Of a DNA stretch of 64,000 nt, positions 8,082-62,266 are shown one piece after another. The DNA is from Octopus vulgaris (Eukaryota). The stretch lies in assembly GCA_951406725.2 (NCBI GenBank), contig OX597817.1, positions 99,572,001 through 99,636,000 of the forward strand, written 5' to 3'. The notes below the pieces were generated by a model that worked only from the letters and a program-made list of their open reading frames with translations, did not search any database and was not told the origin of the DNA. The position numbers were made by a program, and so were the translations under genes. How positions within the stretch are numbered: position 1 is the first letter of the stretch; each line of letters starts with the position of its first letter.

Positions 8082-8171
8082 CCGGGGGACATTAATGGTC
8101 CGCGACTCGACCTTCACGAGCGGACTTCCCCCCATGACCAACAGAAAAGAAAAACAACTAAAAGGTAGGTA

Positions 8172-28044: not shown

Positions 28045-28125
28045 ATTAAGGGACAGCCAGGAAATTTCCGCTGGTTCTTATACATCCTTTGAGGTTTTCA
28101 AGAAATACTTCTAAGTTATCTATTT

Positions 28126-28538
28126 GGATCTTTTCGGTTTGAACGGCAGTTTTTAACATAATTTCTAGGTAACTAAAAAATTTAAAACTTCGTATACTGT
28201 TAGAATGTGTTTATAAAACATCTTTTTCTCTTGGCTTTATTGAGAAAATTCTATAGTTTGTAAGATATTTATTGTTTTTTCTTCTTCAATTTTTGCAATT
28301 TCAACCAATCAATTACGTCTATTGAGGTAAAAAGCATTCTGTGCCGTATGAATATGTCCCTCGTTTAAGAAATAGATTGGGTTTATTTACATTTGTGAAG
28401 AAAAAAAGATACCCTTCCCCCCACCCCTAACCCTAAAACAGATAGAAATGCAATAGATCGATACTAGGGTCATAATTATGGGTGACAATTTCATATGATA
28501 CCGCTAGAAAAAACTGCCGTTCAAACCGAAGAGATCCA
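28126..28538. mobile_element. MITE, GG-ended TIR, 8-bp TSD (Merlin-like)
   Basis: GGATCTTTTCGGTTTGAACGGCAGTTTTT / AAAAACTGCCGTTCAAACCGAAGAGATCC; TSD ATCTATTT on both sides. Confidence 0.9.
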
Positions 28539-29622
28539 TCTATTTTGTTTAACTAGCAGGTTTAGGGGTTTTAAATAATAAAATTAAATTGACTAGGAAT
28601 AACATTCCATAATTTCATAAAGAGAATAAAATCTCCCAATTTTATCAACAGGACTCTCTCTCTCATTAAGGTGCTTGCAAAGGAACCTACTTGAATAATC
28701 TGACCTACTAGAGATCTGTTACCCATTCTCAGATTTGTTTACACGAAATTATTGCATGCCACTGTCGTTCCGAACCGAAGATGTTTCAGGACCTGACAGT
28801 GAAATATCTCTTCCAACCTGTGACGTTTGAGACTGGGCCACTAACCACGTTGGCCCTTGGCTTTCCCAAAGCCTTAGCCTCACCATCAAATGTGGTAAAC
28901 GCTGCGAGCATGCTGGCTTGCTTCAGTAGGTTCCGTTAAACCTTGATGGGTGCGACAAGTTGCTGTAATGAAGAAAAAAAAAAAAAATCCCCATGAATGG
29001 TTGGTACTACTAGCGAAGACTAGACCCGGTACGTATAGACAAATTGTCGAAGACTAGACATGCGCAGTCGCGCGTCCGCGCTAGCTAGTCGAAAGTAGTC
29101 GATCCTACAACGACTTGCGCGTATGCAAATGAGTTGTGTTGGAAGACAACCAATGGGTCTAATTAATGATCAAGACAAGGCTGGTGGTGGTTTAGTGTAA
29201 ATAAACAAACAAGAAAACATCAAAACAAACCAAAAAAAAAAACAAAACCCTTCATGGAATGCTGTAATATGCTCTCCTCTCTCGCTCAGACATTCTTACA
29301 CACAGATACACATGTGTAATGAACTGTTACTAAAATATCTTCATCTTATCAAATCCATTAATCGATATCAACTTTCCATTCCTTATCATCTTAAGGATAT
29401 TTTGTTTCTTCTCTCTTTCTCACATATATATATATATATATAGTACGTTTAAATATTTGTTGTGCAAGATTTTTTATGTGAAGTCGTGTGTTGAAACAGA
29501 TATTGTTATATTTCAGAATGGTCATTTTGCCAGTTTAGCCAATAAAAACACACGCACTATATATTTGGTGTTACTTTGCTCAGTGTTATTTATTTTTTAC
29601 ATTAATCTTAATCTTATTTTGG

Positions 29623-30145: not shown

Positions 30146-31796
30146 TCATATGTTGTGGTGTGTGTTAGTGTTCCATTCTAGTTTTCTATTCAGGCTAGGT
30201 TTATTTTCTATTATGTGTGCAGCTTCTGTAATTTGTCTAATTGTTGCATCTGATCTATGTGTGGATAATATTTTAATTTCTATGTTATTGATTGATCCCC
30301 CGTGTTCTTGTTCGGCGTGTTGATACAGAATCGATGAGCTTTTACCTTCTTTGAGTTGTCTCCAATGCTCATTTACCCGCTCTCCTATGCTTCTTGCCGT
30401 TTCCCCTACGTATGTCATTGTCTTGTTACTGCATCGTCCCTCTATACATCTTATACTATAGACTACATTTCTGGCTTTACAGTTTGTTTGTGGGCTAAAT
30501 CTACATACAGTACAGTACTTATCCGTACAGGGGTTCTACTAAAAGGATAGGTTCTACCAATTATAGATTTGATAGGGTTGCCTGGCTTTTCAACAACCTT
30601 AATTCTTAGCTTAAGTTTGTCTAGGGTCCTTCTAAAGCGATACGCCAGTTCACCTCCAGGGGTGGTGTCAACGAACATGACACTCTGGTATTTATGGCTA
30701 TCATACCAAGAGTTGGCCTTCCCTATTTTCTTTTTTGTCCTTTCTATAGTGTTCCATGACTTGTTCCTATAGAGTGGGCAAATACCATTCCTATCATTAC
30801 ATAATATATTATCAAATTTCTTAATGGCTCCTTTGTATACTCTGATCCTTTCTTTATGGCTGTAACCTGAGAACTGCATGTGGTGAATGAAATATTGTAT
30901 GTGTCTTTTTAACTCTGTGAGCTCGCACATGCATGACACATTTCTCATTATTCTGACGAGGTCTGCCATCAAAATATTGAATTTGGCATCGTCCGCAATG
31001 GCTGAGTTCCGGTGGATCAAGTATTTTGAGGCCATAGGTTTGGCATAATATGAATGAAGGATTTGTGTTTTATTATTCACAATTTCTAGCCAGAGTTCGG
31101 TGTCTAGTACTGGTAGTCTATGGTTGGGATGTTTAGTGGGGTAGTCTATTGTGACCTTAATACTCTGGTGGATGGAGTTAGCTATTTGCTGGATGCTCTC
31201 CATAGTATTAGTTTCTATTACTATATCAACATTACTCTCTTGTGGGGGTGCCTTTACCACTATGTTGATATCATCAACATAGCGAGAGTACATGTTTACG
31301 AGTATGGAGTTCTGTGTTAGGCGTTCTTTAAGCCTTCTGTCCCACCATACCATACCATGAAAAGGTTGGCCACATCACCAGCGATACTAACGCCGATGGC
31401 TGCCCCCTCATCCTGGGCATATATTTTATTATTAAACTTAAATGTGTGGCCTTTTAGGGTAATTCTTATACTAGCTCCTAGTGCATGTGTGATCATTTTC
31501 TTTATCTGATGGACATTTGCGGGGCTCCGTATGGCTCTGGTCCATCTGTGCCATCTTTCTATATGTGTCTTCCTAGCCATAGAAGTAATTGTGGGCGGTC
31601 TACCTCTTAAACATCTACTGGGGCAGAAACTACTAAGATTATGTTTATCTAAGTATTCAGTATTACATGTCAGTCTAAGTAGGAGGCCCAGTTCCTCTGT
31701 GTTGACATTACAGAACTCCACCTGGCTCTCATTGATCATCTCCACACACTTCTCCACCGCAAAATCTACGTCGATCGATGGGTATAAGGATAACAC
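30146..31796 (-). pseudogene. Penelope RT + GIY-YIG endonuclease, frameshifted
   Basis: ORFs 31317-31796, 30463-31353 and 30146-30418. Confidence 0.9.
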
Positions 31797-35770: not shown

Positions 35771-37008
35771 TGCATATTCTGTATAATTCACTAGTTATCG
35801 TTATAGATATTAAGATCTATCTCCCTTACAGGGCTGATTAGAAATTGGCTGCCGATTCTTCGCGGGGTTTTTCTCTTCCCTTCTCTCCCCCTCTTTTTAC
35901 ATTGTCGTCTGTCTGGACTCCTCTCTTCCTACCACCCGCCATGGCTATGCATACTTAAGCTAGTAAACTGCCTCATTCTTGATTCCGAATTCCTTTTGCC
36001 AAGTCTGTCCGTAAACGAAGTGATCTCAAGATAAGAAATCTTTGAACTTTAATTCATCCGTATCTCTATTTATTATTATTATCTATTAATTATTATTATT
36101 CTGATCCCCCTAGTCGCCACTCTGTTTACTATTTCAGCCTCGCCTCGTTTTTGCATATTCTGTATAATTCACTAGTTATCGTTATAGATATTAAGATCTA
36201 TCTCCCTTACAGGGCTGATTAGAAATTGGCTGCCGATTCTTCGCGGGGTTTTTCTCTTCCCTTCTCTCCCCCTCTTTTTACATTGTCGTCTGTCTGGATT
36301 CCTCTCTTCCTACCACCCGCCATGGCTATGCATACTTAAGCTAGTAAACTGCCTCATTCTTGATTCCGAATTCCTTTTGCCAAGTCTGTCCGTAAACGAA
36401 GTGATCTCAAGATAAGAAATCTTTGAACTTTAATTCATCCGTATCTCTATTTATTATTATTATCTATTAATTATTATTATTCTGATCCCCCTAGTCGCCA
36501 CTCTGTTTACTATTTCAGCCTCGCCTCGTTTTTGCATATTCTGTATAATTCACTAGTTATCGTTATAGATATTAAGATCTATCTCCCTTACAGGGCTGAT
36601 TAGAAATTGGCTGCCGATTCTTCGCGGGGTTTTTCTCTTCCCTTCTCTCCCCCTCTTTTTACATTGTCGTCTGTCTGGACTCCTCTCTTCCTACCACCCG
36701 CCATGGCTATGCATACTTAAGCTAGTAAACTGCCTCATTCTTGATTCCGAATTCCTTTTGCCAAGTCTGTCCGTAAACGAAGTGATCTCAAGATAAAAAA
36801 TCTTTGAACTTTAATTCATCCGTATCTCTATTTATTATTATTATCTATTAATTATTATTATTCTGATCCCCCTAGTCGCCACTCTGTTTACTATTTCAGC
36901 CTCGCCTCGTTTTTGCATATTCTGTATAATTCACTAGTTATCGTTATAGATATTAAGATCTATCTCCCTTACAGGGCTGATTAGAAATTGGCTGCCGATT
37001 CTTCGCGG
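35771..37008 (+). repeat. Tandem array 381 bp x 3.25
   Basis: TGCATATTCTGTATAATTCAC recurs at 35771, 36152, 36533 and 36914. Confidence 0.95.
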
Positions 37009-37953
37009 CGCGCCCGCCCTACCCACCCCCACCACCAATACCGGATATCTCTATATTTGCTCCAACTATACCGGATGTCGTTTTCTCCCACCACCATTAT
37101 AGGTGTCTACTCTTTGAACCCCCCTCTTCAATACGCTATTTCACCATGCATTACCCCTCTCTCGATATCCTACGTTCTACTTGCCTAGAACCTGTCCTCT
37201 GAACCACCACCCCCCACTGGTGCTCCCCTATATTTCTACACCCCCCACCACCATTATAGGTGTCTACTCTTTGAACCCCCTCTTCAATACGCTATTCACC
37301 ATGCATTACCCCTCTCTCGATATCCTACGTTCTACTTGCCTAGAACCTGTCCTCTGAACCACCCCTCCCACTGGTGCTCACCCCTCCCACTGGTGCTCCC
37401 CTATATTTCTGCACCCCCCACCACCATTATAGGTGTCTACTCTTTGAACCCCCTCTTCAATACGCTATTTCACCATGCATTACCCCTCTCTCGATATCCT
37501 ACGTTCTACTTGCCTAGAACCTGTCCCCTGAACCACCCCTCCCACTGGTGCTCCCCTATATTTCTGCACCCCCCACCACCATTATAGGTGTCTACTCTTT
37601 GAACCCCCTCTTCAATACGCTATTTCACCATGCATTACCCCTCTCTCGATATCCTACGTTCTACTTGCCTAGTACCTGTCCTCTGAACCACCCCTCCCAC
37701 TGGTGCTCCCCTATATTTCTGCACCCCCCCATAAAAAGCACCATCCGAACGTGGCCGATGCCAGACCCCTCTGGCACCTGTGCAGGTGGCACGTAAAAAA
37801 CACCCACTACACTCGCGGAGTGGTTGGCGTTAGGAAAGGCATCCAGCTGTAGAAACACTGCCAGACTAGACTGGAGCCTGGGGCAGTCCCGAGCTCCCCA
37901 GACCCCGGTCGAAACCGTCCAACCCGTGCTAGCGCGGAAAACGGACGTTAAAC

Positions 37954-37992
<39 letters not shown>
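35771..37992 (+). mobile_element. Composite non-coding RTE-tailed element A (tandem monomers + C-rich body + RTE tail)
   Basis: 381-bp array, GCGCCCGCCC junction, about 4 x 155-175 bp C-rich repeats (37068-37730), RTE tail, (GAT)n. Confidence 0.7.
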
Positions 37993-39072
37993 ATATACAC
38001 CTGAGTGATGTACCTACAATGGATGCTGTCCAAAAACTAAAAACTAATAAAAGAATATTTCACACATAAACACATATATATCTATTTGTATCGGTGTGTA
38101 TATACACACACAAGATTAAAAACTAAAGAATATGAAAACTAAAAGAATATATCACACACATTTTATTTGATTTGTGTAAAAAAAAATCAGGTAAAATTAC
38201 AGATTAACACCTGCACGATTTTCACTAAAAAAAAAAAAAAAAAAACTCGGATTTTTTGCGTGGGATCAAGTACCCTGACCTCCTAATATGCTGCAAATCC
38301 CATATTTTGGTCCGGAATTGCTCCGGAAAGGGGGGAGTAAACCCCCCCCCCCGGAATTTTCACAAGGAAGAAGAAAAAAACCTCAGATTTCTTGCGTGGA
38401 ATCAAGTACCCTGACCTCCTAATATGCTGCAAATCCCATATTTTGGTCCGGAAGGGGGGGGGTAAACACCACCCCCCCCGGAATTTTCACAAGGAAAAAA
38501 AAAATCAGATTTTTTGCGCGGAATCAAGTAACTTAACCTCCTAATATGCTGCAAATCCCATATTTTGGTCCGGAATTGCTCCGGAAAGGGGGGGTAACCC
38601 CCTCCCCCGGAATTTTCACAAGGAAAAAAAAAATAACATATCAATAATTTAGAAAAGAAACATTTCTAGAAAATAGTAAATTGAAGTGTCAACAAATTAT
38701 TGGGCAAAATTGAAGTGTGAACAAATCATTGGGCAAAAGAAGATTTGGCATACTGTCATGCTTTTAGCTGTCAGAAGTGAAAGTCGTCAACTTCGTGTAT
38801 TTGCGTCAGGTTCGCTGTTAGGCTTATAAAACAATTGAAGTTCAGTTTAAAGTTTATAAATAAATACATTTCATTCCATGTTCTGTTTAAACTTTATAAA
38901 TAAATATATTCTTGCAGTGTGTGTATATGTGGCTATATGTCTGACTAATGTGTGTGTCTGTATTTATTGTATGTGTGTATAAGTAGTTATATGCTTATAT
39001 TATCCATTATAGTAATATTTGTCTGTTGAAACCTGTTTTAAGGCGGTCAATAGTTTAATTAAAGATGTATCT

Positions 39073-39110
<38 letters not shown>

Positions 39111-40347
39111 GTGTATATATACATGTGTATACATATATATATATATATATAAATATATATATATACACATGTCTATATATATACACATGTATATATAAAT
39201 ATATATATATAAATATATATATACACATGTATATATATATAGACACATCTTTAATTAAACTATTGACCGCCTTAAAACGGGTTTCAACAGACAAATATTA
39301 CTATAATGGATAATGTAATGGATAAAATTCAGACAAACTTACCTCTTGCTGTCAAAAAAAGTGGATTAATTCTCAGCAAAACATACTGTTATGCTAGACC
39401 AGTGGTTTTCAACCAGGGTTCCGCAAGAAGTTGCAAAACTGCTAAAATCGGCATTAATTTTTAATTCTCCTGTGCAGATATGTGTGCATAAGACTATTAA
39501 ATTATTGTACAGGGGTTCCTTGAGCCAGTGGAATGTTTGAATTACGCTGTGTGGTTTCAGTTTCTAATTTTTGCTTCTGATCTCTCTTTGCCCCCCCCCC
39601 CTCTCTATCTCAGTTGTTCATTCTGCTGATATTTAGAAAAGTTTTCGCGCCAAGTTTTGTTGTGGGCGGGAAAAGATGAACGATTTAAAATAAATATACC
39701 TTAATTGTAGTGTGAGAAAGTATATATATTCTGATGATAAAATATATTATCTTTCAAAAACATCCCAAATTTATAGACTATATCGTGTATGTTTAAGAAA
39801 TGGTTCATGAGACATTGTTCATCTGTCTCCCCACCACACCTCCACCTACACAAAAATTAGTTTGAGATAGAGAGGGCGGCACAGAGAGAGATCAGAAGCA
39901 AAAATTAGAACCTGACACTATCACAGAGCGTAATTCAAACATTCCACTGGCTCGTGAACCCCTGTACAATAATTTAATAGTCTTATGCACACATATCTGC
40001 ACAGGAGAATTAAAAATTACTGCCGATTTTAGCAGTTTTGCAACTTCTTGCGGAACCCTGGTTGAAAACCACTGGTCTAGCATAACAGTATGTTTTGCTG
40101 AGAATTAATCCACTTTTTTTGACAGCAAGAGGTAAGTTTGTCTGAATTTTATCCATTACATTATCCATTATAGTAATATTTGTCTGTTGAAACCCGTTTT
40201 AAGGCGGTCAATAGTTTAATTAAAGATGTGTCTATACTTGTATATATATATATACATGTGTATATATATATATTTATATATACATGTGTATATATATATA
40301 TTTATATATATATATATATATGTATACACATGTATATATACACCTGT

Positions 40348-42700
40348 ATCATCATCATCATCATCATCATCATCATCGTTTAACGTCCGCTTTCCGCGCT
40401 AGCACGGGTTGGACGGTTTGACCGGGTCTGGGAAGCCAGGGGCCGCACCAGGCTCCAGTCTGAATCTGGCAGAGTTTCTACGGCTGGATGCCCTTCCTAA
40501 CGCCAACCACTCCGTGAGTGGATTGGGTGCTTTTTACGTGCCACCTGCACAGGGGCCGGAGGGTCCGGCATCGTCACGATCGGTTCGAGCATTTTAACGT
40601 GTCAGCGGCACGGGGGCAACGAGGTCCGGGGTACTTTGGGGATCCAGGGTACTTTGGGGATCCGGGGTACTTAGAATGAGTAGGGGGTATGTGGAATTGC
40701 TGCAGAAAGCAGCCCGGGTCTTTGTAGTCACAGCATTTATCGTCACTGAGTAAGGAAGGGTTGGTGTAGGTTCCTAAGAAATAAAGACATTCGTTATCGT
40801 CACTGAGTAACGTTATTAGGTAGAGGAAAGAATACAGATATTCTAGAGTTGAGTTGGGGAGGGGGGTCCAGTTGAGGTGGGTAATATAGGGGAGCAACCA
40901 GTGGGGAAGGTTGGGGTAAGGAGGAACGATGGCAGGAAGGGTTGGTGTAGGTTCCTAAGAAATAAAAACGTAGGATATTACGAGGCGGGAGGGTGCTAAA
41001 GGGGGATAGTCGGAATGAAGCAGTGTCAGGAGGAAGCGTAAGATCGGTGGGCAGTTGATGAGCTATGGCGCTAGCAGCTTGTCTTTTCACAGTGAAAGCA
41101 TATGAGGAGAAGGGGTAGTGGGGGGAGGAGGAGGGAGTAGGGCGTACCCGGTGTAGATGAGTAAGGCATATCCGGTGTAGATGGTGAGGACAGGGTATAC
41201 TGGTATTGGTGGTGGGGGGTGAGGAACAGTGTTCACCAGTATTGGTGGTGTTGGCGGTGAGAACAGTGTTCACCGGTATTGGTGGTGGGGGTGAGAACAG
41301 TGTTCATCGGTATTGGTGGTGTTGGCGGTGAGAACAGTGTTCACCGGTATTGGTGGTGGGGGTGAGAACAGTGTTCATCGGTATTGGTGGTGGGGGTGGG
41401 GGGGCGGGCGCACATGGGAAGAGATGGGATTACGGCTTGAGGTAGCCTTGCCTAAGGTTAAATTTTGTAGAGAGAGAGATAGAAAGATAAATCAAGTTAT
41501 GGCGAAGGCTTGAAAGTAGCCTTAAAAGGTTAAATTTTCGTAACAATGTATGAATAAACGTAGTAACAACGAATAGAAATATTAAGATAAATTTTTAAAG
41601 AACTTGCTGCGGACATCGGTCGGGAGTTGAAATTGAAGAAGTAAGTTAGTTGAATTGGGAATTTAAATTGTAGAATCGTAATGGTAAGAGGAGGAAAAAG
41701 ACCGCCAAATGGCTGAAAGATGGAAAGAGATGGGAAGAGATGGGATTACGGCTTGAGGTAGCCTTGCCTAAGGTTAAATTTTGTAGAGAGAGAGATAGAA
41801 AGATAAATCAAGTTATGGCGAAGGCTTGAAAGTAGCCTTAAAAGGTTAAATTTTCGTAACAATGTATGAATAAACGTAGTAACAACGAATAGAAATATTA
41901 AGATAAATTTTTAAAGAACTTGCTGCGGACATCGGTCGGGAGTTGAAATTGAAGAAGTAAGTTAGTTGAATTGGGAATTTAAATTGTAGAATCGTAATGG
42001 TAAGAGGAGGAAAAAAGACCGCCAAATGGCTGAAAGATGGAAAGAGATGGGAAGAGATGGGATTACGGCTTGAGGTAGCCTTGCCTAAGGTTAAATTTTG
42101 TAGAGAGAGAGATAGAAAGATAAATCAAGTTATGGCGAAGGCTTGAAAGTAGCCTTAAAAGGTTAAATTTTCGTAACAATGTATGAATAAACGTAGTAAC
42201 AACGAATAGAAATATTAAGATAAATTTTTAAAGAACTTGCTGCGGACATCGGTCGGGAGTTGAAATTGAAGAAGTAAGTTAGTTGAATTGGGAATTTAAA
42301 TTGTAGAATCGTAATGGTAAGAGGAGGAAAAAAGACCGCCAAATGGCTGAAAGATGGAAAGAGATGGGAAGAGATGGGATTACGGCTTGAGGTAGCCTTG
42401 CCTAAGGTTAAATTTTGTAGAGAGAGAGATAGAAAGATAAATCAAGTTATGGCGAAGGCTTGAAAGTAGCCTTAAAAGGTTAAATTTTCGTAACAATGTA
42501 TGAATAAACGTAGTAACAACGAATAGAAATATTAAGATAAATTTTTAAAGAACTTGCTGCGGACATCGGTCGGGAGTTGAAATTGAAGAAGTAAGTTAGT
42601 TGAATTGGGAATTTAAATTGTAGAATCGTAATGGTAAGAGGAGGAAAAAAGACCGCCAAATGGCTGAAAGATGGAAAGAGATGGGAAGAGATGGGATTAC

Positions 42701-42701
<1 letters not shown>
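40348..42701 (-). mobile_element. Composite non-coding RTE-tailed element B, inserted in the right arm of foldback 1
   Basis: 317-bp x 4 array, GCGCCCGCCC junction, 30-bp CCACCACCAATACCG repeats, RTE tail with (ATC)n. Confidence 0.7.
41414..42701 (-). repeat. Tandem array 317 bp x 4
   Basis: ATGGGAAGAGATGGGATTACG recurs at 41414, 41730, 42047, 42364 and 42681. Confidence 0.95.
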
Positions 42702-42744
<43 letters not shown>

Positions 42745-45326
42745 AGATACATCTTCAATTAAACTATTGACCGCCTTAAAACAGGTTTCAACAGACAAAT
42801 ATTACTATAATGGATAATATAAGCATATAACTACTTATACACACATACAATAAATACAGACACACACATTAGTCAGACATATAGCCACATATACACACAC
42901 TGCAAGAATATATTTATTTATAAAGTTTAAACAGAACATGGAATGAAATGTATTTATTTATAAACTTTAAACTGAACTTCAATTGTTTTATAAGCCTAAC
43001 AGCGAACCTGACGCAAATACACGAAGTTGACAACTTTCACTTCTGACAGCTAAAAGCATGACAGTATGCCAAATCTTCTTTTGCCCAATGATTTGTTCAC
43101 ACTTCAATTTTGCCCAATAATTTGTTGACACTTCAATTTACTATTTTCTAGAAATGTTTCTTTTCTAAATTATTGATATGTTATTTTTTTTCCTTGTGAA
43201 AATTCCGGGGGAGGGGGTTACCCCCCTTTCCGGAGCAATTCCGGACCAAAATATGGGATTTGCAGCATATTAGGAGGTCAAGTTACTTGATTCCACGCAA
43301 AAAATCTGATTTTTTTTTTCCTTGTGAAAATTCCGGGGGTGGGGGGGTTTAACCCCCCCCCCTTTCCGGACCAAAATATGGGATTTGCAGCATATTAGGA
43401 GGTCAGGGTACTTGATTCCACGCAAGAAATCTGAGGTTTTTTTCTTCTTCCTTGTGAAAATTCCGGGGGGGGGGGGGGTTACCCCCCCCCTTTCCGGAGC
43501 AATTCCGGACCAAAATATGGGATTTGCAGCATATTAGGAGGTCAGGGTACTTGATCCCACGCAAAAAATCCGAGTTTTTTTTTTTTCTTAGTGAAAATCG
43601 TGCGGGTGTTAATCTGTAATTTTACCAAAAATCATATACATTGTTTTAAGAAATAATTTATTTACTTTCTTTAAAAAATTCTTTTATTTTAGTCTGTAAA
43701 AACAACTCATTTGCATACGCGCAAGTCGTTGTAGGATCGACTACTTACGACTAGCTAGCGCGATTGCGCGCGCCGGGTCCAATCTTCACTAGTACCCGAA
43801 TGGTTTCAATAGTTTTAACAGAAAGATATGGAAGAATTAGATGAAAGTTCTCCGGTAATTTTCTTTCATGTAAATAAATGTTAATGTTAATTATACACGC
43901 TCCATGTTTAAACGTCGCCCAAGTTCTCCTGGGGTGAAATAAAAATAAACATAATTTCAATCGATTGTAGTTCTTAAAATTGATGTTTTTTAAAAGTTGT
44001 TTCTACGTTTTCATTTAATCATTTATATTATATAATTTTAAAATGTTTTTCTTTCCTTGAAGTTCCTATTCAAATGCTTGTAATGTAACCGAAAGCTTTT
44101 TCTTTCAAAATTAAAGTAAACAGTATTTTGTTTACGTTTCGGTATTTCAAGTAAACCTTGATATTTTTATACTCTCCCATTTTCTAGAAATACACTGCGC
44201 GTCACTCACGAATATTTTTAATCATGCAATATTTCTAATAAATTTTGGGTAAACTGTAATTCAATCATGCACTCTGTCCGAAATGTTAGATACTTTTTTT
44301 TCTCTTTTTAAAAGCAAACCAATACACCCCCCCTTTTTTTTAACTGCACTGTATCTTACCATCTAACCCTCAACTTATTTCTCAAATGATTTAACAACGT
44401 ATTATGATCAGCATTGAACTACTTCCGCATGTAGCGAGTTTTAACAATTAAATCTCGTCTCATTACGAGATAACGTTTGTGTTGGCGCCATTTACAATTT
44501 CAGCTGTTGTGATTTTGTCAGCGTATTTTTTGCAAAATGGTTATGCGAAATCAACTAACTGCTATAGCCGCGAAAGAGGATCCGCTACAGCTTGTTGCTT
44601 TTATGATACAAACCGTAAATACCTTTTATTCTGTCTAAAGCATACTCTTTGTATTTTTCATTTGATGAATTTTAAAATATTTATACAATAATTTTCTGTA
44701 ACAATATCTAGTTTGTCAAAATTACTAGGTGCCTTGCTTCAATTAATGATTATTCTAAAACTTTCCAATAGTTTGAATGATTTTAAATTTGGATTGCTTA
44801 CTTTAAAACGATGAAACTCTATTTTGTATTAATGCATTGGCAGACGTCAGCGATAGGTAGCACACACAGTTTGAATTTCTCCATTTTGACGAGTTTTTTC
44901 AGATTTTTTCACTGTGGCCTTGGAAATGATGGGGAGCATCTTATTAGAAAAGAAAAGTTTTCGAAAAATGATGATTTTTGTTTTGGTTAATATAAAGATC
45001 TCGGTCAAACTAAAGGGTTTGACCCCAGCAAAAACAAAGGAAAAATATAGTGTAATAGGTGTAAAACAACTTGCAAACGAATAGGAAAATAAAGGCATTC
45101 CTTCGATATAACTCGACAAAATCAAAACATTTCACTTCGAGTATTTCCGTGGGTTGTGGAGCATAGATATAACGAAATTATGCCAGCAATTTTAAACTTG
45201 AAGAAAAAAATCCTTGCATATTTGTTCTTACCTGTTTCATGTGTGTATGTAAAATCCGCAAATTTCCAAGCAGGAAACAGAATCGAACTGTCATTTGCTT
45301 CCACGGAAATACCCGGTGAAATGTTT

Positions 45327-48300
45327 AGATCTTTTCGGTTTGAACGGCAGTTTTTTAAAATAATTTCCACGTAACTAAACACTTTTAAACTTTGTATACT
45401 GGTAGAATGTGTTTATAAATCATTTTTTTCTCTTGGCTTTATTTAGAAAATTCTAGTTTGTAAGATATTTTTTGTCTTTTTTCTTCAATTTCTGCAATTT
45501 CAACCAATCAATGACGTCTATTGAGGTGAAAGCTTTCTGTGCCGTATGAATATGTCCCTCGTTTAAGAAACAGATTGGGTTTATTTATATTTGTGAAGAA
45601 AAAGATACCCTTCTCCCCACCCCTAACTCTAACCGTAACCAACCCTAACCCTAAAACAGATTGAAATGCAATAGGTCATAATTATGGGTGACAATTTCAT
45701 ATGACACCGCTAGGAAAAACTGCCGGTACTTGTCTATTGTCGTGGTCCCGGTTTCGCACACGCGAATTCGCGCGCGCGCGCGCCAGACGTAGGTACTCGA
45801 TACTCGAGATCCTACGAGGTGACTTGCGCATGCGCAGTGCAGAATTCGCGCATGCGCGTTACCCCCCCCCCTAAAAAAAAGGTGTTGGATTTCACTAAAA
45901 ATATATATGTGTGTGTGTGTGTGTATATATAACATTTTCAATTTTACACAAAAAAATTACATAGTCGCTTTCCTCGCGGATTTACAGATAAATGAATTAA
46001 TTACTATTTTACAGAATAAAATTAATGAATTAATTATATAAATTAAATAATTCTTGAAAATTAATTAATATTAATAATATTTTTTGAACAAAGTAAATAG
46101 TTTATAAAACCTGGTTAATAATTTTTTTTACACAAACGCGAACGTATATAATTTGTGAAACTTTTTTTTTTTTACAGACGTATATAATTTGGTAAACTTA
46201 ATGAATTAATTTCTTCTCATCATCATCATCGTTTAACGTCCATTCTCCATGCCAGCATGGGTTGGACGGTTCGACCGGGGATCTGGGAAGCCAGAAGGCT
46301 GCACCAGACTCCAGTCTTACCTGGCAATGTTTCTACAGCTGGATGCCCTTCCTAACGCCAACCACTCCGAGAGTGTAGTGGGTGCTTTTTACATGCCACC
46401 CGCACAGGTGCCAGGAGAGGCTGGCAACGGCCACGGTCGGATTGGTGCCAGTCGAGGCGGCTCTGGCATCGGCCACGATTCGGATAGTGCTTTTTACGTA
46501 CCACCAGTCCAGGGGTCCTGGCATTTGCCGGGTGCCACACTTGCCCCAACATGTCTTCGCAAGCAAAGGGGGTTGGCGTGGGTGCCTGTCGTGGGATGAG
46601 GTTCGATATCAACTTCGCTTGCCTCAACAGGTCTTTGTGTATAAATGTATAAATTTTTCGCACTAAATTCTTTCCGTAGAATTTATCAAAAAACGCGCAA
46701 AATTATTCCGTAGAATTTATCAAATTAAAAAACGCAAAATTAATATATTTTTTGAAATTGCAAATTATTTAGAATATAAAACAAATGAAGTTAAATTTTA
46801 AAAATAAATGTCATATACTTATACTCTGTAAGGTGCTGTGTTCACACTTCAATTTACTATTTTCTAGAAATGTTGCTTTTCTGATTGAAACAATTTTTCT
46901 CAATCTCCATTTAAAAGTCCATAATGCCTCTTGAGCCATATCAAAATGAACAACTTTGAATTACGCGGTGGTGGTGGTGGTGTGAGGTTCTAATTTTTTT
47001 TTCTGATCTCTCTTTGCCCCCCTCTTTATCTCAGTTGTTCATTCCGCTAATATTTAGAAAAATTTTCGCGCCCAATTTTTTGTTGTCGCGGGAAAAGATG
47101 AACGATTTAAAATAAATATATCTTAATTGTAGTGTGAGAAAGTATATATATTCTGATGACAAAATATATTATCTTTCAAAAACATCCCAAATTTATAGAC
47201 TATATCATGTAGGTTTAAGAAATATATATATATATATATATATATAAGAGAATGAAACATCTTTCATCTGTCTCTCCACCACACCTCCATCTAGGGGGGC
47301 AAAGAGAGATCAGAAAAAAAATTAGAACCTCACACCACCACCACCACCGCCGCCGCGTAATTCAAAGTTGTTCATTTTGATATGGCTCAAGAGGCATTAT
47401 GGACTTTTAAATGGAGATTGAGAAAAATTGTTTCAATTAGAAAAGCAACATTTCTAGAAAATAGTAAATTGAAGTGTGAACACAGCACCTTACAGAGTAT
47501 AAGTATATGACATTTATTTTTAAAATTTAACTTCATTTGTTTTATATTCTAAATAATTTGCAATTTCAAAAAATATATTAATTTTGCGTTTTTTAATTTG
47601 ATAAATTCTACGGAATAATTTTGCGCGTTTTTTGATAAATTCTACGGAAAGAATTTAGTGCGAAAAATTTATACATTTATACACAAAGACCTGTTGAGGC
47701 AAGCGAACTTGATATCGAACCTCATCCCACGACAGGCACTCACGCCAGGACCCCTGGACTGGTGGTACGTAAAAAGCACTATCCGAATCGTGGCCGATGC
47801 CAGCCTCTCCTGGCACCTGTGCGGGTGGCATGTAAAAAGCACCCACTACACTCTCGGAGTGGTTGGCGTTAGGAAGGGCATCCAGCTGTAGAAACATTGC
47901 CAGATAAGACTGGAGTCTGGTGCAGCCTTCTGGCTTCCCAGATCCCCGGTCGAACCGTCCAACCCATGCTGGCATGGAGAACGGACGTTAAACGATGATG
48001 ATGATGAGAAGAAATTAATTCATTAAGTTTACCAAATTATATACGTCTGTAAAAAAAAAAAAAGTTTCACAAATTATATACGTTCGCGTTTGTGTAAAAA
48101 AAATTATTAACCAAGTTTTATAAATTATTTACTTTGTTCAAAAAATATTATTAATATTAATTAATTTTCAAGAATTATTTAATTTATATAATTAATTCAT
48201 TAATTTTATTCTGTAAAATAGTAATTAATTCATTTATCTGTAAATCCGCGAGGAAAGCGACTATGTAATTTTTTTGTGTAAAATTGAAAATGTTATATAT

Positions 48301-48521
48301 ACACACACACACATATATATTTTTAGTGAAATCCAACACCTTTTTTTTTAGGGGGGGGGTAACGCGCATGCGCGAATTCTGCACTGCGCATGCGCAAGTC
48401 ACCTCGTAGGATCTCGAGTATCGAGTATCTACGTCTGGCGCGCGCGCGCGAATTCGCGTGTGAGAAACCGGGACCACGACAATAGACAAGTACCAAACTG
48501 CCGTTCAAACCGAAAAGATCC
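45327..48521. mobile_element. Second copy of the 28126 MITE family, right TIR split by foldback 2
   Basis: High identity to 28126-28538; TSD AAATGTTT at 45319-45326 and 48522-48529. Confidence 0.9.
45725..48494. mobile_element. Foldback element 2 (1.2-1.3 kb arms, 8-bp TSD AAACTGCC)
   Basis: 45725-47023 inverse of 47293-48494; GGTACTTGTC..GACAAGTACC tips. Confidence 0.95.
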
Positions 48522-48674
48522 AAATGTTTTGATTTTGTCGAGTTATATCGAAAGACTGTAAAAAAAAAAAAAAAAAGAAGAAAAAAAAAGCGCGCTGACG
48601 ACACTAGGAGAGGACTTTGGAAAAATTCACAAGATTTGATTTTTCCGTCAAAGCTTCCGGTAAAATGGATATAT

Positions 48675-49400
48675 ACTCTTTTACTTGTTTCAGTCATTTG
48701 ACTGCGGCCATGCTGGAGCACCGCCTTTTAGTCGAGCAAATCGACCCCGGGACTTATTCTTTGTAAGCCCAGTACTTATTCTATCGGTCTCTTTTGCCAA
48801 ACCGCTAAGTGTCGGCGACGTAAACACACCAGCATCGGTTGTCAAGCAATGCTAGGGGGACAAACATATACACACATATATATATATACATACTGGCAGT
48901 ATCGCTCGGGAAATAACTATAAAGCATTTTTAGAGAGCTATAGCCAAAAAATAGAAAAAAATTATGGTAAATTTTTTTTTGAGAGTTAAAACGGTCAAGT
49001 TGCGTCCCCTAGACAGTCTGTGGTTTGTGTTTCTGATTCTCGACCCCATGTCGAATTTATCGATTCTTTTCAGAACTGGGGGAACTTTTCAAAATTTTCG
49101 CTGCGTTAGTTTTGAATTATGACATTGGGCTATGTGTGTGTCAAGTTTCATCAGAATCGGTTGAAAGCCATGGTCAGGGTGAGGGTACAACCTGACAGAC
49201 ACACAGACAAACTGCCGTTTATATAGAGAGAGATATACGACGGGCTTCTATCAGTTTCCGTCTACCAAATCCACTCACAAGGCTTTGGTCGGCCCGAGGC
49301 TATAGTAGAAGACACTTGCCCAAGATGCCACGCAGTGGGACTGAACCCGGAACCATGTGGTTGGTAAGCAAGCTACTTACTACACAGCCACTCCTGCGCC
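48675..49400 (-). mobile_element. tRNA-derived Octopus-type SINE (OR-like), interrupted
   Basis: Head GGCGCAGGAGTGGCTGTGT (A box) and GGTTCAGTCC (B box), CORE-like segment, CR1-type tail. Confidence 0.85.
48892..49234. mobile_element. Non-autonomous Helentron/DINE-like insertion in the SINE microsatellite
   Basis: ACT(A/G)GCAGT start, (GACA)n microsatellite and TTTATATAGA..GAT end; cleanly splits the SINE. Confidence 0.5.
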
Positions 49401-49745
49401 TATATATATATATATATTTACAACTATATATATTTATATATTTTTTTTACGGAATCCAACGTTTTTGGTTATGAAAAAACAAAATTTTCAAAAATCCCAA
49501 TTTCAAAATTTAATGGGCCACATTTCGGATTGAGTATGTTACCATGATTTTGTGAGATTTGGCTGTTATTTTGGTAAATTTTTTGAGTAACGCCCGCACG
49601 ATTTTCACTAAAAAAAAAAGAAAAGAATTTCCGAAGCCTCCACTTCATCCCACCCAGTTTTATGGACCCCAAAAAGCATATTAGGTCAGAGTACTTGATT
49701 GCATGCAAAATATTATATATATCTATATATATATCTATCTATATG

Positions 49746-52212: not shown

Positions 52213-52294
52213 ACTATATACCATGCTAGCGACCCATGCTGGCATGGAAAGCGGACTTTAAACAATGATGATGATAATATACTATTTCAAAATA

Positions 52295-52640
52295 GGCGCA
52301 GGAGTGGCTGTGTGGTAAGTAACTTGCTTACCAACTACATGGTTCCAGGTTCAGTCCCACTGCGTGACACCTGTGGCAAGTGTCTTCTACTATAGGCTCG
52401 GGCCGATCAAAGCCTTGTGAGTGGATTTGGTAGACGGAAACTGAAAGAAGCCCGTCGTATATATATATATATATATGTTTGTGTATCTGTGTTTGTCCCC
52501 CCCCCCTACATCACTTGATAACTAAGTGGAATAGAATAAGTACTAGGCTTACAAAGAATAAGTCATGGGTTCGATTTACATAACTAAAGGCAGTGCTCCA
52601 GCATGGCCGCAGTCAAATGACTGAAACAAGTAAAAAGAGT
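52295..52640 (+). mobile_element. tRNA-derived Octopus-type SINE (OR-like)
   Basis: Same family as 48675-49400; A/B boxes; tail CAGCATGGCCGCAGTCAAATGACTGAAAC. Confidence 0.88.
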
Positions 52641-52825
52641 ATATAATTATATATACATACATATTATATATATATAACAAAGAGGAGTTGTAAGGTACCA
52701 CACGAGTTGAATTATATATGAAAGGTTTGAAAATGCAATTTTAAAAGATGTTTATTTACTTTACCGGTTTCACTTTTCAGAAAAAGATTGTCAAAAGTAA
52801 CATGTAAAAGTCTGGTTGTGTTAAT

Positions 52826-53303: not shown

Positions 53304-56300
53304 AATTTCGATGTTTTAAAAAAAGAAAGAGAACTTGGAACTTAAGAGAGACTGCTGATTTTGAACTTTGTACTGAATGTAAACAAAACAATTGTCTTAA
53401 AAAAAAAGGGGAGAAAAAAGACCGAACTGTATTGAGTCAAATGTTGAACGATTTGTGTTTTTTTTTTTTTGCGAACTCTGTATTGTGTTTAAATGCATTT
53501 GATTTGGTTTTTCGAACTGTGTTATGTTTAAATGCAATTGATTGTTTTTCGAACTCTGTGTATGATTTGTCAACCTTTGTTTTGAAAACAAATTGTTAAA
53601 TTACGCAACCTCCGCCTGCTGTGTCTCTTGTTGTTGTGTTTGCCCCCCACCCCTCCATGGTGGATTTCTGGTTTGCTGAGCGCTGTCGCTGTTGCAAGTG
53701 GGCTGTTCCCGGAGTGAGGGCCTGTGGTGGCATCGTAAGGCCTAGGGCTCGCGTGGCGGCATAACAACTGGTGTCAGAAGTGGGATTTTAATTGCTGCAG
53801 TTGATCGGTTGTTCGCCATGGATTTGCTGGAGGCACGAATGAGGAGCCAGACCGGAGAGAAAGAGATCTCACTGGCTATGATTGTGGAGATGCTGAAGGA
53901 CCAGACAACACAGCTAGACACATTCATGGGAAGGCTTGAGAAGAGGCAACAGGGCTTACGGGAAGATCCCCAGGTGCTTGAGGATGCAGATGGGTCAGCT
54001 TTAGAGGATGAGTGTTGAACATGTGGTAAGGGTGGACACATGGGTGGAGATTGCCCGGCAAGTGAGAAGGAAAATCAAGGTGACCAGGAGGAACTTTGTG
54101 TTGCTGAACCTGTTGTGGTTGTTGAACCGGTAGTGGTTGCTGGACCCAAAGTGCTTGCTGGAGCTGTAGTGGTTGCTAAATCTGAAGAGACTGCTGAGTC
54201 TGAGGTTGCTGAACCCAAAGTTGCTGTTGCTGTTCCATGTCTTAATCCTTTAACATCTGGACCCCTGTCTCCTGGGACTCAGGATGACTGTGTGGTGCCC
54301 ATTGGGGAGAAGCCACAGGTGTGGATGGACTGTCGGCTGAACGTGCGTTCCGGGAAGCCTTCGGTGCAGAAGGCAGTAAAGAGGACCAAGCCTGGTAGCG
54401 AGGCGAGAGCGCTGCGGATGATGGTAGGACCACCAAGATCAAGAAGACTGCTCCAGTGTCGGGTGAGCTTTGTGTTTGATGGCTGCTTGGGGCTGGAGGA
54501 GCCTGACTGGCAGTGCACGCTGAAAGCTCGAGTGAGGGTCGGGCGGACCCTGGTAGAGGCGGGAGCTGACAGCGCTGGTTGGGTCAGCCAATTTCTCGGA
54601 AGTGACACAAGCGATTTGTAGAGGGCAAATCGAGGGACTATGCCAGGCGGTGGACCAGCGTCGGGGTCAGTTGTGTCACTACAGGAGGGCAGTTGAAGGA
54701 GGTGGTGGTCTGCCCGTGCAGTTGCAGAAGCGGTTCGCAAGGAGTCGCCAGTGCTTGGTGGGCACTTGGGTGTTGCGGAGGAAGCAGTTGTTGGCGAGGT
54801 GTGCAGGATGTTGGTTGCATGGACCTGGCGGAGCGCTATATCGACCCGGGCAGCCATCGCTCAGAAGATGGTCCCAGTTCGGCAGCGAGAAATGAAAGGA
54901 GATCGACGACAGGGGACAGTGAAAAAGTCGAGCGGTCCCTGGTCGTTAGCAATTGTTGTGCAGAATGGGGATGGCGCAGCAAGATGTTATGTAGACTATA
55001 GAGCCCTGAGAGAGGTGGCTGCCGTGAAGGATTGGCCGGTCCCTGCTTGTGTGAGGGAGTTAAGGAGTTTCCTCAGACTGTGCACCTATTATAGGTGCCT
55101 CATAGGAAGCTTTGCGACGTTGGCTGCACCGTTACACAAGATACAGAGGAAAGATGCTGATTTATGGCCAGTGGTAAAGTGGCGGCAGCAGGAAGCAGCG
55201 AGACCATCTTGGGAGGAGATGTCCAGGCTCAGCCCTGAAACTAAGAACTATTGGTGCCAGTGGGACCTTTGTTTGAGCGACGGGTTGCTTGAGAGGCACC
55301 CGATGACCTCAGTGAGCACTGGCAGTTGGTGGTACCCATGAAGATGAAACTTGAGCTGCTGGAAGAAGCTCACAGCCAGGTTGCAAGTGGACATCTGCAG
55401 GAAGGGCTGACTGGAGTACACCAACAGGTTGGAGAGGCTCTGAAGTTTTCGGGTGAGGTGATGAAGCGTCAGCATGGCACCAAGACTAGTGAGGTTTTCT
55501 CCGAAAATTGAGCAGGCGACCATGGGTCTGTCCTGTTCAGCTGGAGCACGCCTTCAGAGGTTTGGCTCACCCATTGAAGTCGTCTGGAGATACGACTGTA
55601 GTGTGCTTTTGTCGGGTCGACAAAGCCTAGGGAGGGGGTAGTGTTACGGAGGCAAGAAAAAGGTAAACAAACAGAAAGTATTATGCCCCTTATTCCATTA
55701 GTTGGAATTGAACCGGCGCTCCAGTTGTTCAGGACAATGGTACTTCCCTTTGTCTTGTCACTACCACAACAATTAATGATCCTAGGCAGCGACCTTTGAT
55801 CCCAACACCGTCACGGAAAGTTTTTTAAAAAATGAAAATGCTACCCTATATAAATGCAGCTGGCATTGGGTTAGTTGGTCAGTTGGCGCGGGAGAGCCAG
55901 CAGGGAGTGAATTGCAAATAGTTAGTCGGCGCGGGACAGCCAGCAGGGAGCGAATTGGAGATAGTCAGTTGGCGAGAGTCAGTCAGCCAGAGCGGAGCGG
56001 ATAAGGGAGTGAGATGGAGATGGTGGGGTCGGCGAGAGGCAACGACAAAGATGACAAGCGTGGTCTGGAGAAAGACAGACAGTGAATGTAAGAGATGACA
56101 GTGAAGGGGGCAGAGAGAAGCTGGACTGATATAGTGGGAGTTTTGTGATGATTCAGGGAAGTATTGCAGACGAGGTAATGTTTGTTTATGTTTGAATTTC
56201 GATGTTTAACTGTTTTAAAAAAAGAAAAGAAAGAGAACCTGGAACTCAAGAGAGACTGCTGATTTTGAACTTTGTACTGAATGTAAACAAAACGATTGTC

Positions 56301-60100: not shown

Positions 60101-62266
60101 TCCTCATGAGACGACGGACGAAGGTTGCAAAGCGTCTCAACCAACATCCCAAAAGTAGCGAAACGTCCCGCCTAAAAACAACACTGATGGAGATCGGAAA
60201 AGGCTGCAACAATCCTATATGAGAGAGAAAGCAGACAAAGAAGCCTGGGTTATAAAAAACATTAAATCAAACCCAAAGGCCTTCTTTCATTACGCGAAAG
60301 AAACAATGTCAGTACACTACAAGATAGGACCCCTCCTCCAAAAGGATGGCTCCCTCACAGACAGCCCAACTAAGATCAGTGAGATGCTGAATGACCAGTT
60401 CAAAAGTGTCTTTACCACCCCGTTGGAACACAGACAAGTGAACGAACCAGTGGACTTCTTTGCCGCCTCACCTATAACCAGTGAGGCAGTTACAATAGAA
60501 CATATTGACATTAGCGAAGAAGATGTCCTACTAGCCATAGATGAAGTGGACACTAACTCAACTGCTGGTCCAGATGGTTTCCCAGCAATCCTCCTCAAAG
60601 CGTGTAAGCGTGCCCTAGCAAAACCCCTCAAGATTCTCTTCCAGAGCTTTCTTACAAATGGCAAACTGCCAAGCAAGCTGAAGGAGGGAATAATATGCCC
60701 AATACATAAAGGGCTAAGTAGAGCAGATGCCAATAACTATAGGCCTATCTCTCTGACTTCACACATCAGCAAAGTCATGGAACGGATACTCAGTAAGAAA
60801 CTAATCGCATTCCTTGAGGAAAATAACTTGCTGAGTGATACCCAGCATGGTTTTCGACCAGATAGGAGCTGCCTGACCCAGCTCTTACAGCATTATGACT
60901 GGGTGTTGAGGCAGTTACTCAACAAATCAAATGTGGACGTAATCTACCTTGATTTTGCAAAAGCTTTTGACAAGGTGGATCATGATATGATATGCCACAA
61001 ACTGCGTGACCTCAGCATAGCTGGAAAACTTGGAGTGTGGTTACATGACTTCCTGAAAGATAGGAGTCAGGCAGTAGTGGTTAATGGAGCCACCTCTATG
61101 AACACACAAATAGTGAGTGGTGTTCCACAGGGCATTGTCTTGGGACCACTGCTTTTTATAGTGGCCCTCTCAGATATTCCCTCAAGTGCCCTGATAGCCA
61201 CTCTGGCAAGCTATGCAGACGATATGAAAGTCTCGCAGAAAATACAGAACCCCAGCGATGTTGCCCACCTGTAGCAGGAGTTGGACTCAATCTACAGATG
61301 GGCTGAGGATAATAATATGCAGTTTAATGCTGAAAAATTCCAGGCCCTGCGCTACCAGCATCCAAAAGTGAATATTAAACTTACAGGATACACCGGTCCA
61401 CAGGGAATTTGAATCCCAGAGCCTAAGTCTGTGAGGGACCTGGGTATCGACATGAGTGAGGATACCTCTTTCTAAGTGCACCAGGATGGTGACAAAGTGC
61501 AGACGACTGGCTGGATGGATCCTAAGAACATTCAGAACCAGAGATAAGGAAACCATGATGGTCCTGTGGGAGACATTCGTCCTCAGCTGCCTGGATTACT
61601 GCTCATAGCTATGGTCACCCACCAGTGTAAAATTAACAGTGGACCTTGAAGCAATCCAGAGAAGATTCACAAAGAAGATTGTCTCTTTGCAACAGCTCAG
61701 CTACTGGGAAAGGTTGAAACAGCTAAGACTCTACTCCCTGGAGAGAAGACGGGAGATGTATGCAGTAATATATGTCTGGAAGATCCTGGAAGGAATTGTG
61801 CCAAATTTTGGCATTGTAAGCTACACCAATGCTAGAACGGGACGACACTGCATAGTGCCAAAGACCCCAGCATTGCCATCACGCTTCAGGACCAGCTTCT
61901 GCAACAGCCTGGGTTTCAAGGGCCCACAGCTTTTAATATTCTCCCAAAGAGTCTGAGGAACTTGCACAAAGTAGATGTAGCATTTTTAAATCAAAGCTAG
62001 ACATCTTCCTGTCGAGAGTCCCAGATGAATCTACCTCACGGCAAGAGGTGCAAATGAGAGTAGCTATATCAAACTCCATTCTTCACCAAGTGCCACATAT
62101 TAGAAGAGGTTCTTCGTAATAACAGTGTAGCACAAAACGCAGTGCATCAGCATGGCCGCAGCTCTGAGCTGAAACAAAAAAAAAAAAAAAAAGGTTCTCT
62201 TGGCCGGGCATGGCCGAGTTTGTATTATGAACCAAAAATTTTTCGGCCGGGTTAGTAACGAAAGGG
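57178..62266 (-). mobile_element. Non-autonomous piggyBac element carrying a CR1-group LINE
   Basis: TTAA|CCCTTTCGTTAC ... GTAACGAAAGGG|TTAA; homologous to 33607-34626. Confidence 0.88.
58393..62192 (+). mobile_element. CR1/L2-group LINE (CCCH finger + APE + RT), 5'-truncated, decayed
   Basis: CKFYLRGKCWYGEDGKNCRFAHP; LVETHL; MGDFN; YRPISLTS; YLDFAKAFDKVDH; GVPQG; YADD; stem-loop + poly(A) 3' end. Confidence 0.92.

What the first reader, a model, noticed from the sequence alone, without database searches (positions are those of the whole stretch)
38190..48494. Two multi-kb foldback elements with different outer arms but a shared conserved central loop
Seen: foldback 1 (38190-43626, TSD AAAAATCA) and foldback 2 (45725-48494, TSD AAACTGCC) both start GGTA. 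Their outer arms are largely unrelated, yet their 270-300 bp loops (39588-39883 and 47024-47292) and innermost arm segments are clearly homologous and co-oriented. Neither encodes a transposase. Known: 5'-GG ends with 8-9 bp TSDs fit the Merlin superfamily, while described foldbacks are mostly Mutator- or P-related. Inference: a modular non-autonomous foldback family that conserves its core while swapping arms, the reverse of normal MITE evolution.
Basis: partly seen in the sequence, partly recalled or inferred. Interest (0 to 1): 0.72.

Follow-up and report, generated by a model that had tools for sequence, protein, structure and literature searches.

The report
Foldback transposons sharing one recycled core
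Two hairpin-shaped DNA elements with duplicated target sites, in what is probably an octopus genome, share a 400-base centre but carry mostly different mirrored arms, likely because a transposase made elsewhere (probably Merlin-type) moves them while DNA repair copies one arm onto the other; sharing of a centre between different arms is already known from the fruit-fly transposon Galileo.

Summary
FB1 (38190-43626; 3.1 kb once a one-sided 2.35-kb insertion is removed) and FB2 (45725-48494) have GGTA ends, 8-bp target duplications and arms about 99% alike. An empty paralogous site at 28511 confirms FB2's duplication. Their cores are 88% identical and co-oriented. No transposase was found.

The arms are patchworks of other repeats mirrored on both sides, and they are not wholly unrelated: two short modules are shared. 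Contigs of three DNA runs suggest tens to hundreds of cores per genome. In one run the FB2-type arm has 2.3 times the loop's depth, as a palindrome predicts. The loop's middle is far deeper (about 1,300-2,200 times single copy), so it likely comes from a larger repeat family.

Best reading (0.6): non-autonomous, probably Merlin-mobilised foldbacks whose arms are rewritten by arm-to-arm copying, with the core passed between end families. This is not new in kind. Galileo shows one centre with arms of three subfamilies, and zebrafish Merlin-N5 has kilobase arms with tandem arrays. The extreme difference between the two tips is the unusual part. The scan's earlier notes held nothing similar.

The parts
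38182..38189 (+). FB1 left target-site duplication AAAAATCA (right copy 43627-43634)
38190..39612 (+). FB1 left arm (1423 bp), begins GGTAAAATT
38218..38634 (+). Subterminal array of about 3 units of 122-136 bp; motif ATTTTCAC(A/T)A occurs 4 times per arm, candidate transposase-binding motif (inferred)
   Evidence: 9 matches in the window vs 0.86 expected; 8 in FB1, 1 in the solo end at 49601
38649..38694 (+). 46-bp module shared with FB2 arms (46839-46882, opposite orientation in the left arm)
38825..38865 (+). 41-bp module 78% like FB2 46775-46809, same orientation
38995..39318 (.). 324-bp TA-centred hairpin nested in the arm and mirrored in the right arm
39400..39535 (+). Segment starting CAGTGG, like a hAT MITE end (likeness recalled). 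Mirror ends at 40074. Its 8-bp flanks are reverse complements, not a direct repeat
39536..39612 (+). FB1 inner inverted repeat, left; part of the shared core; less alike to its right partner (39863-39939) than the outer arms are
39613..39862 (+). FB1 loop (250 bp), shared core; two E2F-like motifs at 39643 and 39666 (motif recalled)
39863..43626 (-). FB1 right arm (1412 bp net), interrupted at 40350-42701
40350..42701 (-). One-sided later insertion: (CAT)n-tailed retro-repeat, 34/71-bp minisatellite, 4.1 x 317-bp tandem
43690..43796 (-). Solo GGTACT end related to the FB2 tip (another at 29003, +)
   Evidence: 0 of 1000 shuffles reach either score
44368..44614 (+). Probable first exon of a + strand transcript, GT donor at 44615; FB2 would lie in its intron
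   Evidence: table 8 record 9 (RNA status of the run is a guess)
44802..45131 (-). Probable exon of a - strand transcript, GTAAG donor at 44801; FB1 would lie in its intron
   Evidence: table 8 record 10
45324..45724 (+). High-copy host repeat that FB2 interrupts (resumes at 48495); ends in left duplication AAACTGCC 45717-45724
45725..47023 (+). FB2 left arm (1299 bp), begins GGTACTTGTC
46217..46620 (.). (CAT)n-tailed retro-repeat fragment present in both FB2 arms: 202 of 204 bases identical between arms vs 86-90% to 5 other copies in the window; right edge approximate
46955..47292 (+). FB2 inner arm plus 269-bp loop (47024-47292): shared core
47293..48494 (-). FB2 right arm (1202 bp; two deletions of 42 and 55 bp relative to the left)
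28511..28518 (+). Single AAACTGCC in an uninterrupted paralogue of FB2's host repeat (empty site)
49573..49627 (+). Solo GGTAAA end 84% like the FB1 tip

Best explanation
FB1 and FB2 are foldback elements with GGTA ends, 8-bp target duplications and no detectable transposase gene, likely moved by a transposase encoded elsewhere (probably Merlin-type), whose arms are likely rewritten by repair that copies one arm onto the other while the unpaired loop is inherited or likely swapped between end families. Shown: ends, duplications, an empty site, foreign repeat pieces mirrored in both arms, element-specific variants shared by both arms, and a multi-copy core. Inferred: (1) cut-and-paste mobilisation in trans; (2) a break in one arm, from hairpin or cruciform cleavage or abortive excision, is repaired from the other arm, so any insertion or deletion becomes symmetric before the element next spreads; (3) the loop has no partner, so it changes only by point mutation and stays recognisable; (4) now and then repair uses another copy as template, or folds back at the core's 77-bp inverted repeat, and joins the core to a different GGTA end.
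For: Duplications and empty site. The retro-repeat piece is 99% identical between FB2's arms but 86-90% to 5 other copies, and contigs of 2 of 3 DNA runs (X3, X4) and the RNA-guess run skip 46150-46691, i.e. a shorter arm type without it exists at about 30-39 times single-copy depth. The hAT-like segment in FB1 has inverted, not direct, flanks. In the homologous inner arm, FB1-type and FB2-type variants are each present on both sides of their own element, and FB2's right inner arm is a copy of its left that lacks about 27 bp seen in FB1. In X4 the arm contig has depth 526.1 and the loop contig 224.5, ratio 2.3. In X1 the left part of the loop (256-551 times single copy) exceeds half the FB2 inner-arm depth (206/2), and one 46-fold contig leaves the FB2 arm at 46977, so cores likely sit in other arms too. 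FB1 and FB2 share alleles at 47131, 47169 and 47171 that are 7-17% minorities in X3 and X4, so the two cores likely form one lineage. Precedent in Galileo.
Against: Only two full elements were seen; no whole genome was held, and contigs cannot show what lies beyond the loop in other copies. Summed contig depth is not a copy number by the tool's own warning, and counts for X1 and X3 were truncated. No autonomous partner was found. The two tips share only GGTA and a 12-bp match further in (15 of 1000 shuffles reach it; 3 of 3 tandem units did not match significantly), so one transposase for both is unproven. The left arm of FB2 has private changes (46111, 46883) absent from the family, and FB1 keeps a one-sided insertion, so arm copying is episodic, not continuous.
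Confidence: 0.6

Rival explanations
1. The core is a palindrome seed. After a break nearby, its 77-bp imperfect inverted repeat folds back and primes synthesis that copies everything out to the nearest solo GGTA end, making a new two-ended element from one end plus whatever lay between.
For: FB1's innermost arms differ at 7 of 108 bases vs 3 of 735 in the non-tandem outer arms (Fisher p 4e-5; boundaries chosen after looking): an old seed with fresh outer arms. Three solo related ends lie in the 64-kb window. The arms are mosaics of modules of very different depth (about 120 to over 4000 times single copy). Fold-back priming at short inverted repeats is recalled from yeast, Tetrahymena and mammalian amplification work; PMC10164571 was seen only as a listing.
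Against: Conversion tracts that stop short of the loop give the same gradient. FB2's innermost arms are identical (0 of 68 mismatches). The modules shared between FB1 and FB2 arms point to common descent with rearrangement.
Confidence: 0.2
2. Nested insertion. The core is a small independent element (a derivative of the abundant repeat that shares the loop middle) that inserts at the axis of existing palindromes; later arm copying erased its own target duplication.
For: The loop middle is 1329-2184 times single-copy depth at 47131 vs 31-256 at 47045. FB1 is layered like nested elements.
Against: The shared part starts at TTTGAATTAC with no recognisable transposon end and no direct repeat. In X4 the left part of the loop tracks the FB2 arm at 1:2.3. 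No free copy of the core lies in the window.
Confidence: 0.12
3. Assembly fold-back artefacts or chance neighbours of inverted repeats.
For: No long read spanning either element was available; no listed contig spans the stretch.
Against: Exact 8-bp direct repeats at both elements, an empty paralogous site, arms 1% diverged with 42- and 55-bp deletions, a one-sided 2.35-kb insertion, and the arm-to-loop depth ratio.
Confidence: 0.02

Closest known systems
Galileo (P superfamily foldback), Drosophila mojavensis, PMC3573991 (passages read)
   Same: Long variable TIRs with internal tandem repeats; TIRs extended by copying internal sequence; one central region found with TIRs of three subfamilies (98% in the centre vs 77% at the ends); explained by conversion between copies.
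   Different: Galileo has 7-bp duplications and a P-type transposase, and its subfamily ends remain clearly homologous. Here the duplication is 8 bp, the tips share little beyond GGTA, and the arms are built of mirrored foreign repeats.
Merlin superfamily, incl. zebrafish Merlin-N5_DR and Merlin-1_DR, PMC8101967 (passages and S1 Table part 1 of 2)
   Same: 5'-GG ends, 8-9 bp duplications; non-autonomous members of about 4.3 kb with TIRs listed as 1000 bp and 113-bp tandem arrays at both ends. Merlin proteins of Octopus bimaculoides are in the paper's supplement; Merlin has 18 families in O. vulgaris and 11 recent insertions totalling 28,998 bp (PMC13282606).
   Different: No DDE_Tnp_IS1595 partner with these ends was seen. 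Core sharing between end families was not described in the passages read.
Tetris of Drosophila virilis and the general foldback plan, PMC4079207 (passages)
   Same: Non-autonomous, modular; flanking, tandem outer and inner TIR domains around a middle domain; 8-10 bp duplications.
   Different: Assigned to Mutator; relatives share the outer TIR ends, not the middle.
Sea-urchin TU elements (recalled; cited only in the reference list seen) and plant MULEs with tandem TIRs (PMC3310237, abstract only)
   Same: Modular long-TIR families; stacked ends.
   Different: As recalled, TU elements keep the outer domain and vary the middle, the opposite of this pair.

Membership tests
Foldback-structured non-autonomous TIR element | Long terminal inverted repeats around a middle domain | tested here: met
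   1.2-1.4 kb arms, 250-269 bp loops
Foldback-structured non-autonomous TIR element | Target-site duplication made on insertion | tested here: met
   8-bp direct repeats at 2 of 2 elements; empty paralogous site for FB2
Foldback-structured non-autonomous TIR element | Tandem repeats inside the TIR | tested here: inconclusive
   Present in FB1; none of that kind in FB2
Foldback-structured non-autonomous TIR element | Dispersed, multi-copy | tested here: met
   Arm and loop at tens to hundreds of times single-copy depth in 3 of 3 DNA-type runs laid; rough measure
Merlin | 5'-GG termini | tested here: met
   GGTA at 4 of 4 ends; definition from PMC8101967
Merlin | 8-9 bp target duplication | tested here: met
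   8 bp at 2 of 2; shared with hAT, P and some Mutator elements, so not diagnostic alone
Merlin | Autonomous partner with the same ends encoding a DDE_Tnp_IS1595 transposase | not testable with these tools
   No genome held; no such ORF in the elements
Merlin | TIR similarity to a catalogued Merlin family | not testable with these tools
   No Repbase or Dfam library is offered; the table read lists sizes, not TIR sequences
Mutator-type foldback (FB, Tetris) | 8-10 bp duplication and long TIRs; MULE transposase partner | tested here: inconclusive
   Duplication length compatible; partner not testable
Galileo / P | 7-bp duplication (Galileo) | tested here: not met
   8 bp here vs 7 bp
hAT | 8-bp duplication with CAG/TAG-type ends (end consensus recalled) | tested here: not met
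   Ends are GGTA
Known structured RNA (Rfam) | Match at gathering score | tested here: not met
   0 of 26 listed matches reach it; most are TA-repeat microRNA models

The most novel reading that the evidence does not exclude
The 400-bp core is a selfish palindrome seed: a short imperfect inverted repeat around a spacer that turns any single GGTA transposon end, with whatever DNA lies between, into a new mobile multi-kilobase foldback. New transposon families would then be minted repeatedly around one reusable centre, at least three core variants having spread in one species, and would fill introns with long double-stranded RNA in a lineage known for heavy A-to-I editing.
Probability: 0.2. Interest if true: 0.75.

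Novelty: new variant of a known kind. Interest (0 to 1): 0.42.

Why it matters
How very long terminal repeats arise and why unrelated DNA transposons converge on the foldback shape is still argued from few families, mainly Galileo and Mutator-like elements. This family keeps a readable record: foreign pieces mirrored in both arms, a shorter arm type in sister genomes, and one core under different tips. With tens to hundreds of young copies, a genome census could separate arm-to-arm conversion from fold-back birth. Both elements probably lie in introns, so they are natural sources of kilobase double-stranded RNA. The phenomenon itself has precedent, which caps the surprise.

Tried and rejected
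No whole genome is held for this window, so no census or search for an autonomous partner was possible.

Exact scans of metagenome contigs with a loop motif and an inner-arm motif: 0 matches each. The viral and prokaryote collections were not scanned.

Earlier findings: 2 unrelated windows sharing 2-3 of 78 words, and two blanks.

No RNA holder is listed on record; X11 is only guessed to be RNA.

Loop as coding remnant: a 44-codon frame with one stop has no Pfam match, and the majority alleles of X3 and X4 at 47169/47171 would put a further stop in it. Rejected.

Loop as structured RNA: no Rfam match; DNA folding z -1.33, 21 of 200 shuffles as good.

Loop as an old decayed palindrome: local score reached by 9 of 1000 shuffles in FB1 but 96 of 1000 in FB2; global scores 70 and 927 of 1000. 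Suggestive at most.

A bacterial promoter scan was uninformative (2 found vs 1.5 expected).

Host gene not identified: a candidate exon at 25793-25975 found no homologue; an ORF at 7383-8078 found none.

Paper searches for such a family found no description. The library lacks most subscription papers, and Repbase and Dfam were not searchable, so it may be catalogued. bioRxiv supplements were closed and not needed.
Full report
Setting. The window is a repeat-rich animal sequence with LTR-, LINE- and Penelope-like ORFs (labels from my own reading of the translations). The only species-named row among 120 listed relatives of a LINE reverse transcriptase at 60159-61271 is Argonauta hians, 61% identical. 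The (CAT)n-tailed and other short repeats look like octopus repeats as I recall them. An octopod is therefore probable, not proven. No whole genome was held.

Observation. Both elements are present at the stated coordinates with GGTA at all four ends and exact 8-bp direct repeats. FB2 interrupts a high-copy repeat whose paralogue at 28123-28550 has the octamer once and runs straight on into the sequence that follows FB2. The duplication was thus made on insertion. Arms are about 99% alike outside indels: FB2 11 mismatches in 1126 bases, FB1 12 in 884 in the outer part. FB1 is 3085 bp plus a later 2352-bp insertion into the TA run of its right arm only. The cores align at 88%; the loops differ at 19 of 232 aligned bases, with 4 of these in the central 135 or so (boundaries chosen after looking). 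Eight frames gave no meaningful Pfam match.

Anatomy of the arms. FB1 reads from tip to centre: GGTA tip, three tandem units with a repeated ATTTTCAC(A/T)A motif, a 46-bp module, AT-rich DNA with a 41-bp module, a 324-bp TA-centred hairpin, a hAT-like segment (likeness recalled), then the core. FB2 reads: a GC-rich GGTACT tip related to solo ends at 43796 and 29003 (0 of 1000 shuffles each), AT-rich DNA, a (CAT)n-tailed retro-repeat piece, the 41-bp and 46-bp modules, then the core. The 46-bp module is inverted relative to FB1. So the arms are mostly but not wholly unrelated.

Every foreign piece is mirrored. The retro-repeat piece is 202 of 204 identical between FB2's arms and 86-90% to five other copies. 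The flanks of the hAT-like segment are reverse complements, where an insertion would leave direct repeats. In the homologous inner arm each element's own variants appear on both sides, and FB2's right inner arm copies the left into the loop edge. FB1's innermost 108 bases differ at 7 sites against 3 in 735 further out; FB2's innermost 68 do not differ.

Family evidence. Twenty of 24 listed runs hold part of the stretch, under four coded organisms. I laid 4 of them on 43465-47292 at 80% likeness. A single-copy contig (43856-45032) gives baselines of 56.5, 55.1 and 7.18 for X1, X3 and X4; it differs from the window at 1, 7 and 7 letters. Ratios to baseline are rough, since the tool warns that summed contig depth is no copy number and that X1 and X3 counts were truncated. 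The left part of the loop stands at 256-551 (X1), 26-56 (X3) and 31 (X4); the FB2 inner arm at 46883 at 206, 163 and 84; the loop middle at 47131 at 2184, 1726 and 1329.

These figures support three readings. First, in X4 the arm contig is 2.3 times the loop contig, as expected if nearly every such loop sits between two FB2-type arms; in X3 the ratio is about 3-6, so arms also occur without this loop or loops were undercounted. Second, in X1 loops outnumber FB2-type arm pairs, the commonest allele at 47045 matches neither FB1 nor FB2, and a 46-fold contig leaves the FB2 arm at 46977, so at least three core variants and other arms likely exist. Third, the loop middle belongs to a much larger family, within which FB1 and FB2 share three alleles that are minorities in X3 and X4. 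Joints 45807-46122 and 46149-46692 in X3, X4 and X11 (none counted in X1) show a shorter arm type without the retro-repeat piece, at 30-39 times baseline.

Mechanism. The elements are most simply passengers of a cut-and-paste transposase supplied in trans. GG ends with an 8-bp duplication match the Merlin definition (PMC8101967, passages), and Merlin occurs and is recently active in Octopus vulgaris (PMC13282606, first third of the text and a supplement search). This step is inferred. The mirrored foreign pieces require copying from arm to arm after those pieces arrived; that much follows from the sequence. The trigger (hairpin cleavage, abortive excision) is inferred. The loop, having no partner, escapes this rewriting, which explains a stable centre without selection. 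Joining one core to tips that share little beyond GGTA needs a template switch between copies or a fold-back rebuild from a solo end. I put 0.6 on ordinary conversion-driven remodelling, 0.2 on the core acting as a dedicated fold-back seed, 0.12 on nested insertion and 0.02 on artefact.

Expression hints. In X11, whose RNA status is a guess, two contigs stop at GT donors (44615 on +, 44801 on -), which would put FB2 and FB1 in introns of opposed transcripts. A>G plus T>C make up 68 of 182 difference sites in X11 against 38 of 170, 38 of 183 and 35 of 158 in the DNA runs (Fisher p 0.0005-0.003). That fits A-to-I editing, but the sites could not be placed (236 rows were not shown), the stretch includes very abundant short repeats, and the animals differ. 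It is no evidence for editing of these arms. Each loop has two E2F-like octamers; 4 of the 7 matches in the window are there (motif recalled; the four are two homologous pairs, so not independent).

Comparison. [quoted passage not shown] It is not a Galileo (8-bp vs 7-bp duplication). Repbase Merlin families already include kilobase TIRs with tandem arrays. Tetris is a modular non-autonomous foldback filed under Mutator (PMC4079207, passages). Five searches found no description of this family, within a limited library.

Verdict. A real, young, modular foldback family, probably Merlin-mobilised; a new variant of a known kind. Interest 0.42.

Noticed in passing
window 44368-45131: Two opposed probable first exons between the foldbacks (+ 44368-44614, - 45131-44802), each ending at a GT donor in contigs of the RNA-guess run; the + exon has an open frame of 26 codons from an ATG to the donor. 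Host genes not identified.
   Followed up: partly
window 43690-43796 (-), 29003-29140 (+), 49573-49715 (+): Three solo ends related to the FB2 or FB1 tips; depth around 43721-43848 is 2200-4300 times single copy, so GGTA-ended families are abundant.
   Followed up: partly
window 41414-42701: 4.1 copies of a 317-bp unit at 99% identity at the end of the insertion in FB1's right arm; a similar arrangement of retro-repeat next to 155/329-bp and 381-bp tandems lies at 36000-37990.
   Followed up: no
window 49209-49216: AAACTGCC, the FB2 target octamer, occurs again at the end of another repeat; probably chance or a shared repeat end.
   Followed up: no
window 39614, 39676, 39815, 46946, 47035, 47098, 47368: A T(T/C)GTTCAT motif or its reverse complement occurs 7 times in and beside the two cores and 5 times in the rest of the window; possible binding site or remnant of old symmetry.
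   Followed up: partly
window 28600-28960 (-) and 25793-25975 (-): Exon-like stretches on the minus strand, possibly of the transcript that spans FB1; one was searched without a hit.
   Followed up: partly
window 636-4552, 13385-15479, 16690-20194, 54697-55495: Broken LTR-retroelement ORFs of Ty3/gypsy type; Tx1-like LINE at about 6534-11540; Penelope-like copies at 22508-23087 and 30146-31374; LINE at 58367-61956 (labels from my reading).
   Followed up: no
window 48670-49418 vs 52232-52645: Short repeats in inverted order around an RTE-like LINE; 86-98% alike in pieces, no shared GGTA ends seen; looks like independent SINE copies rather than a third foldback.
   Followed up: partly
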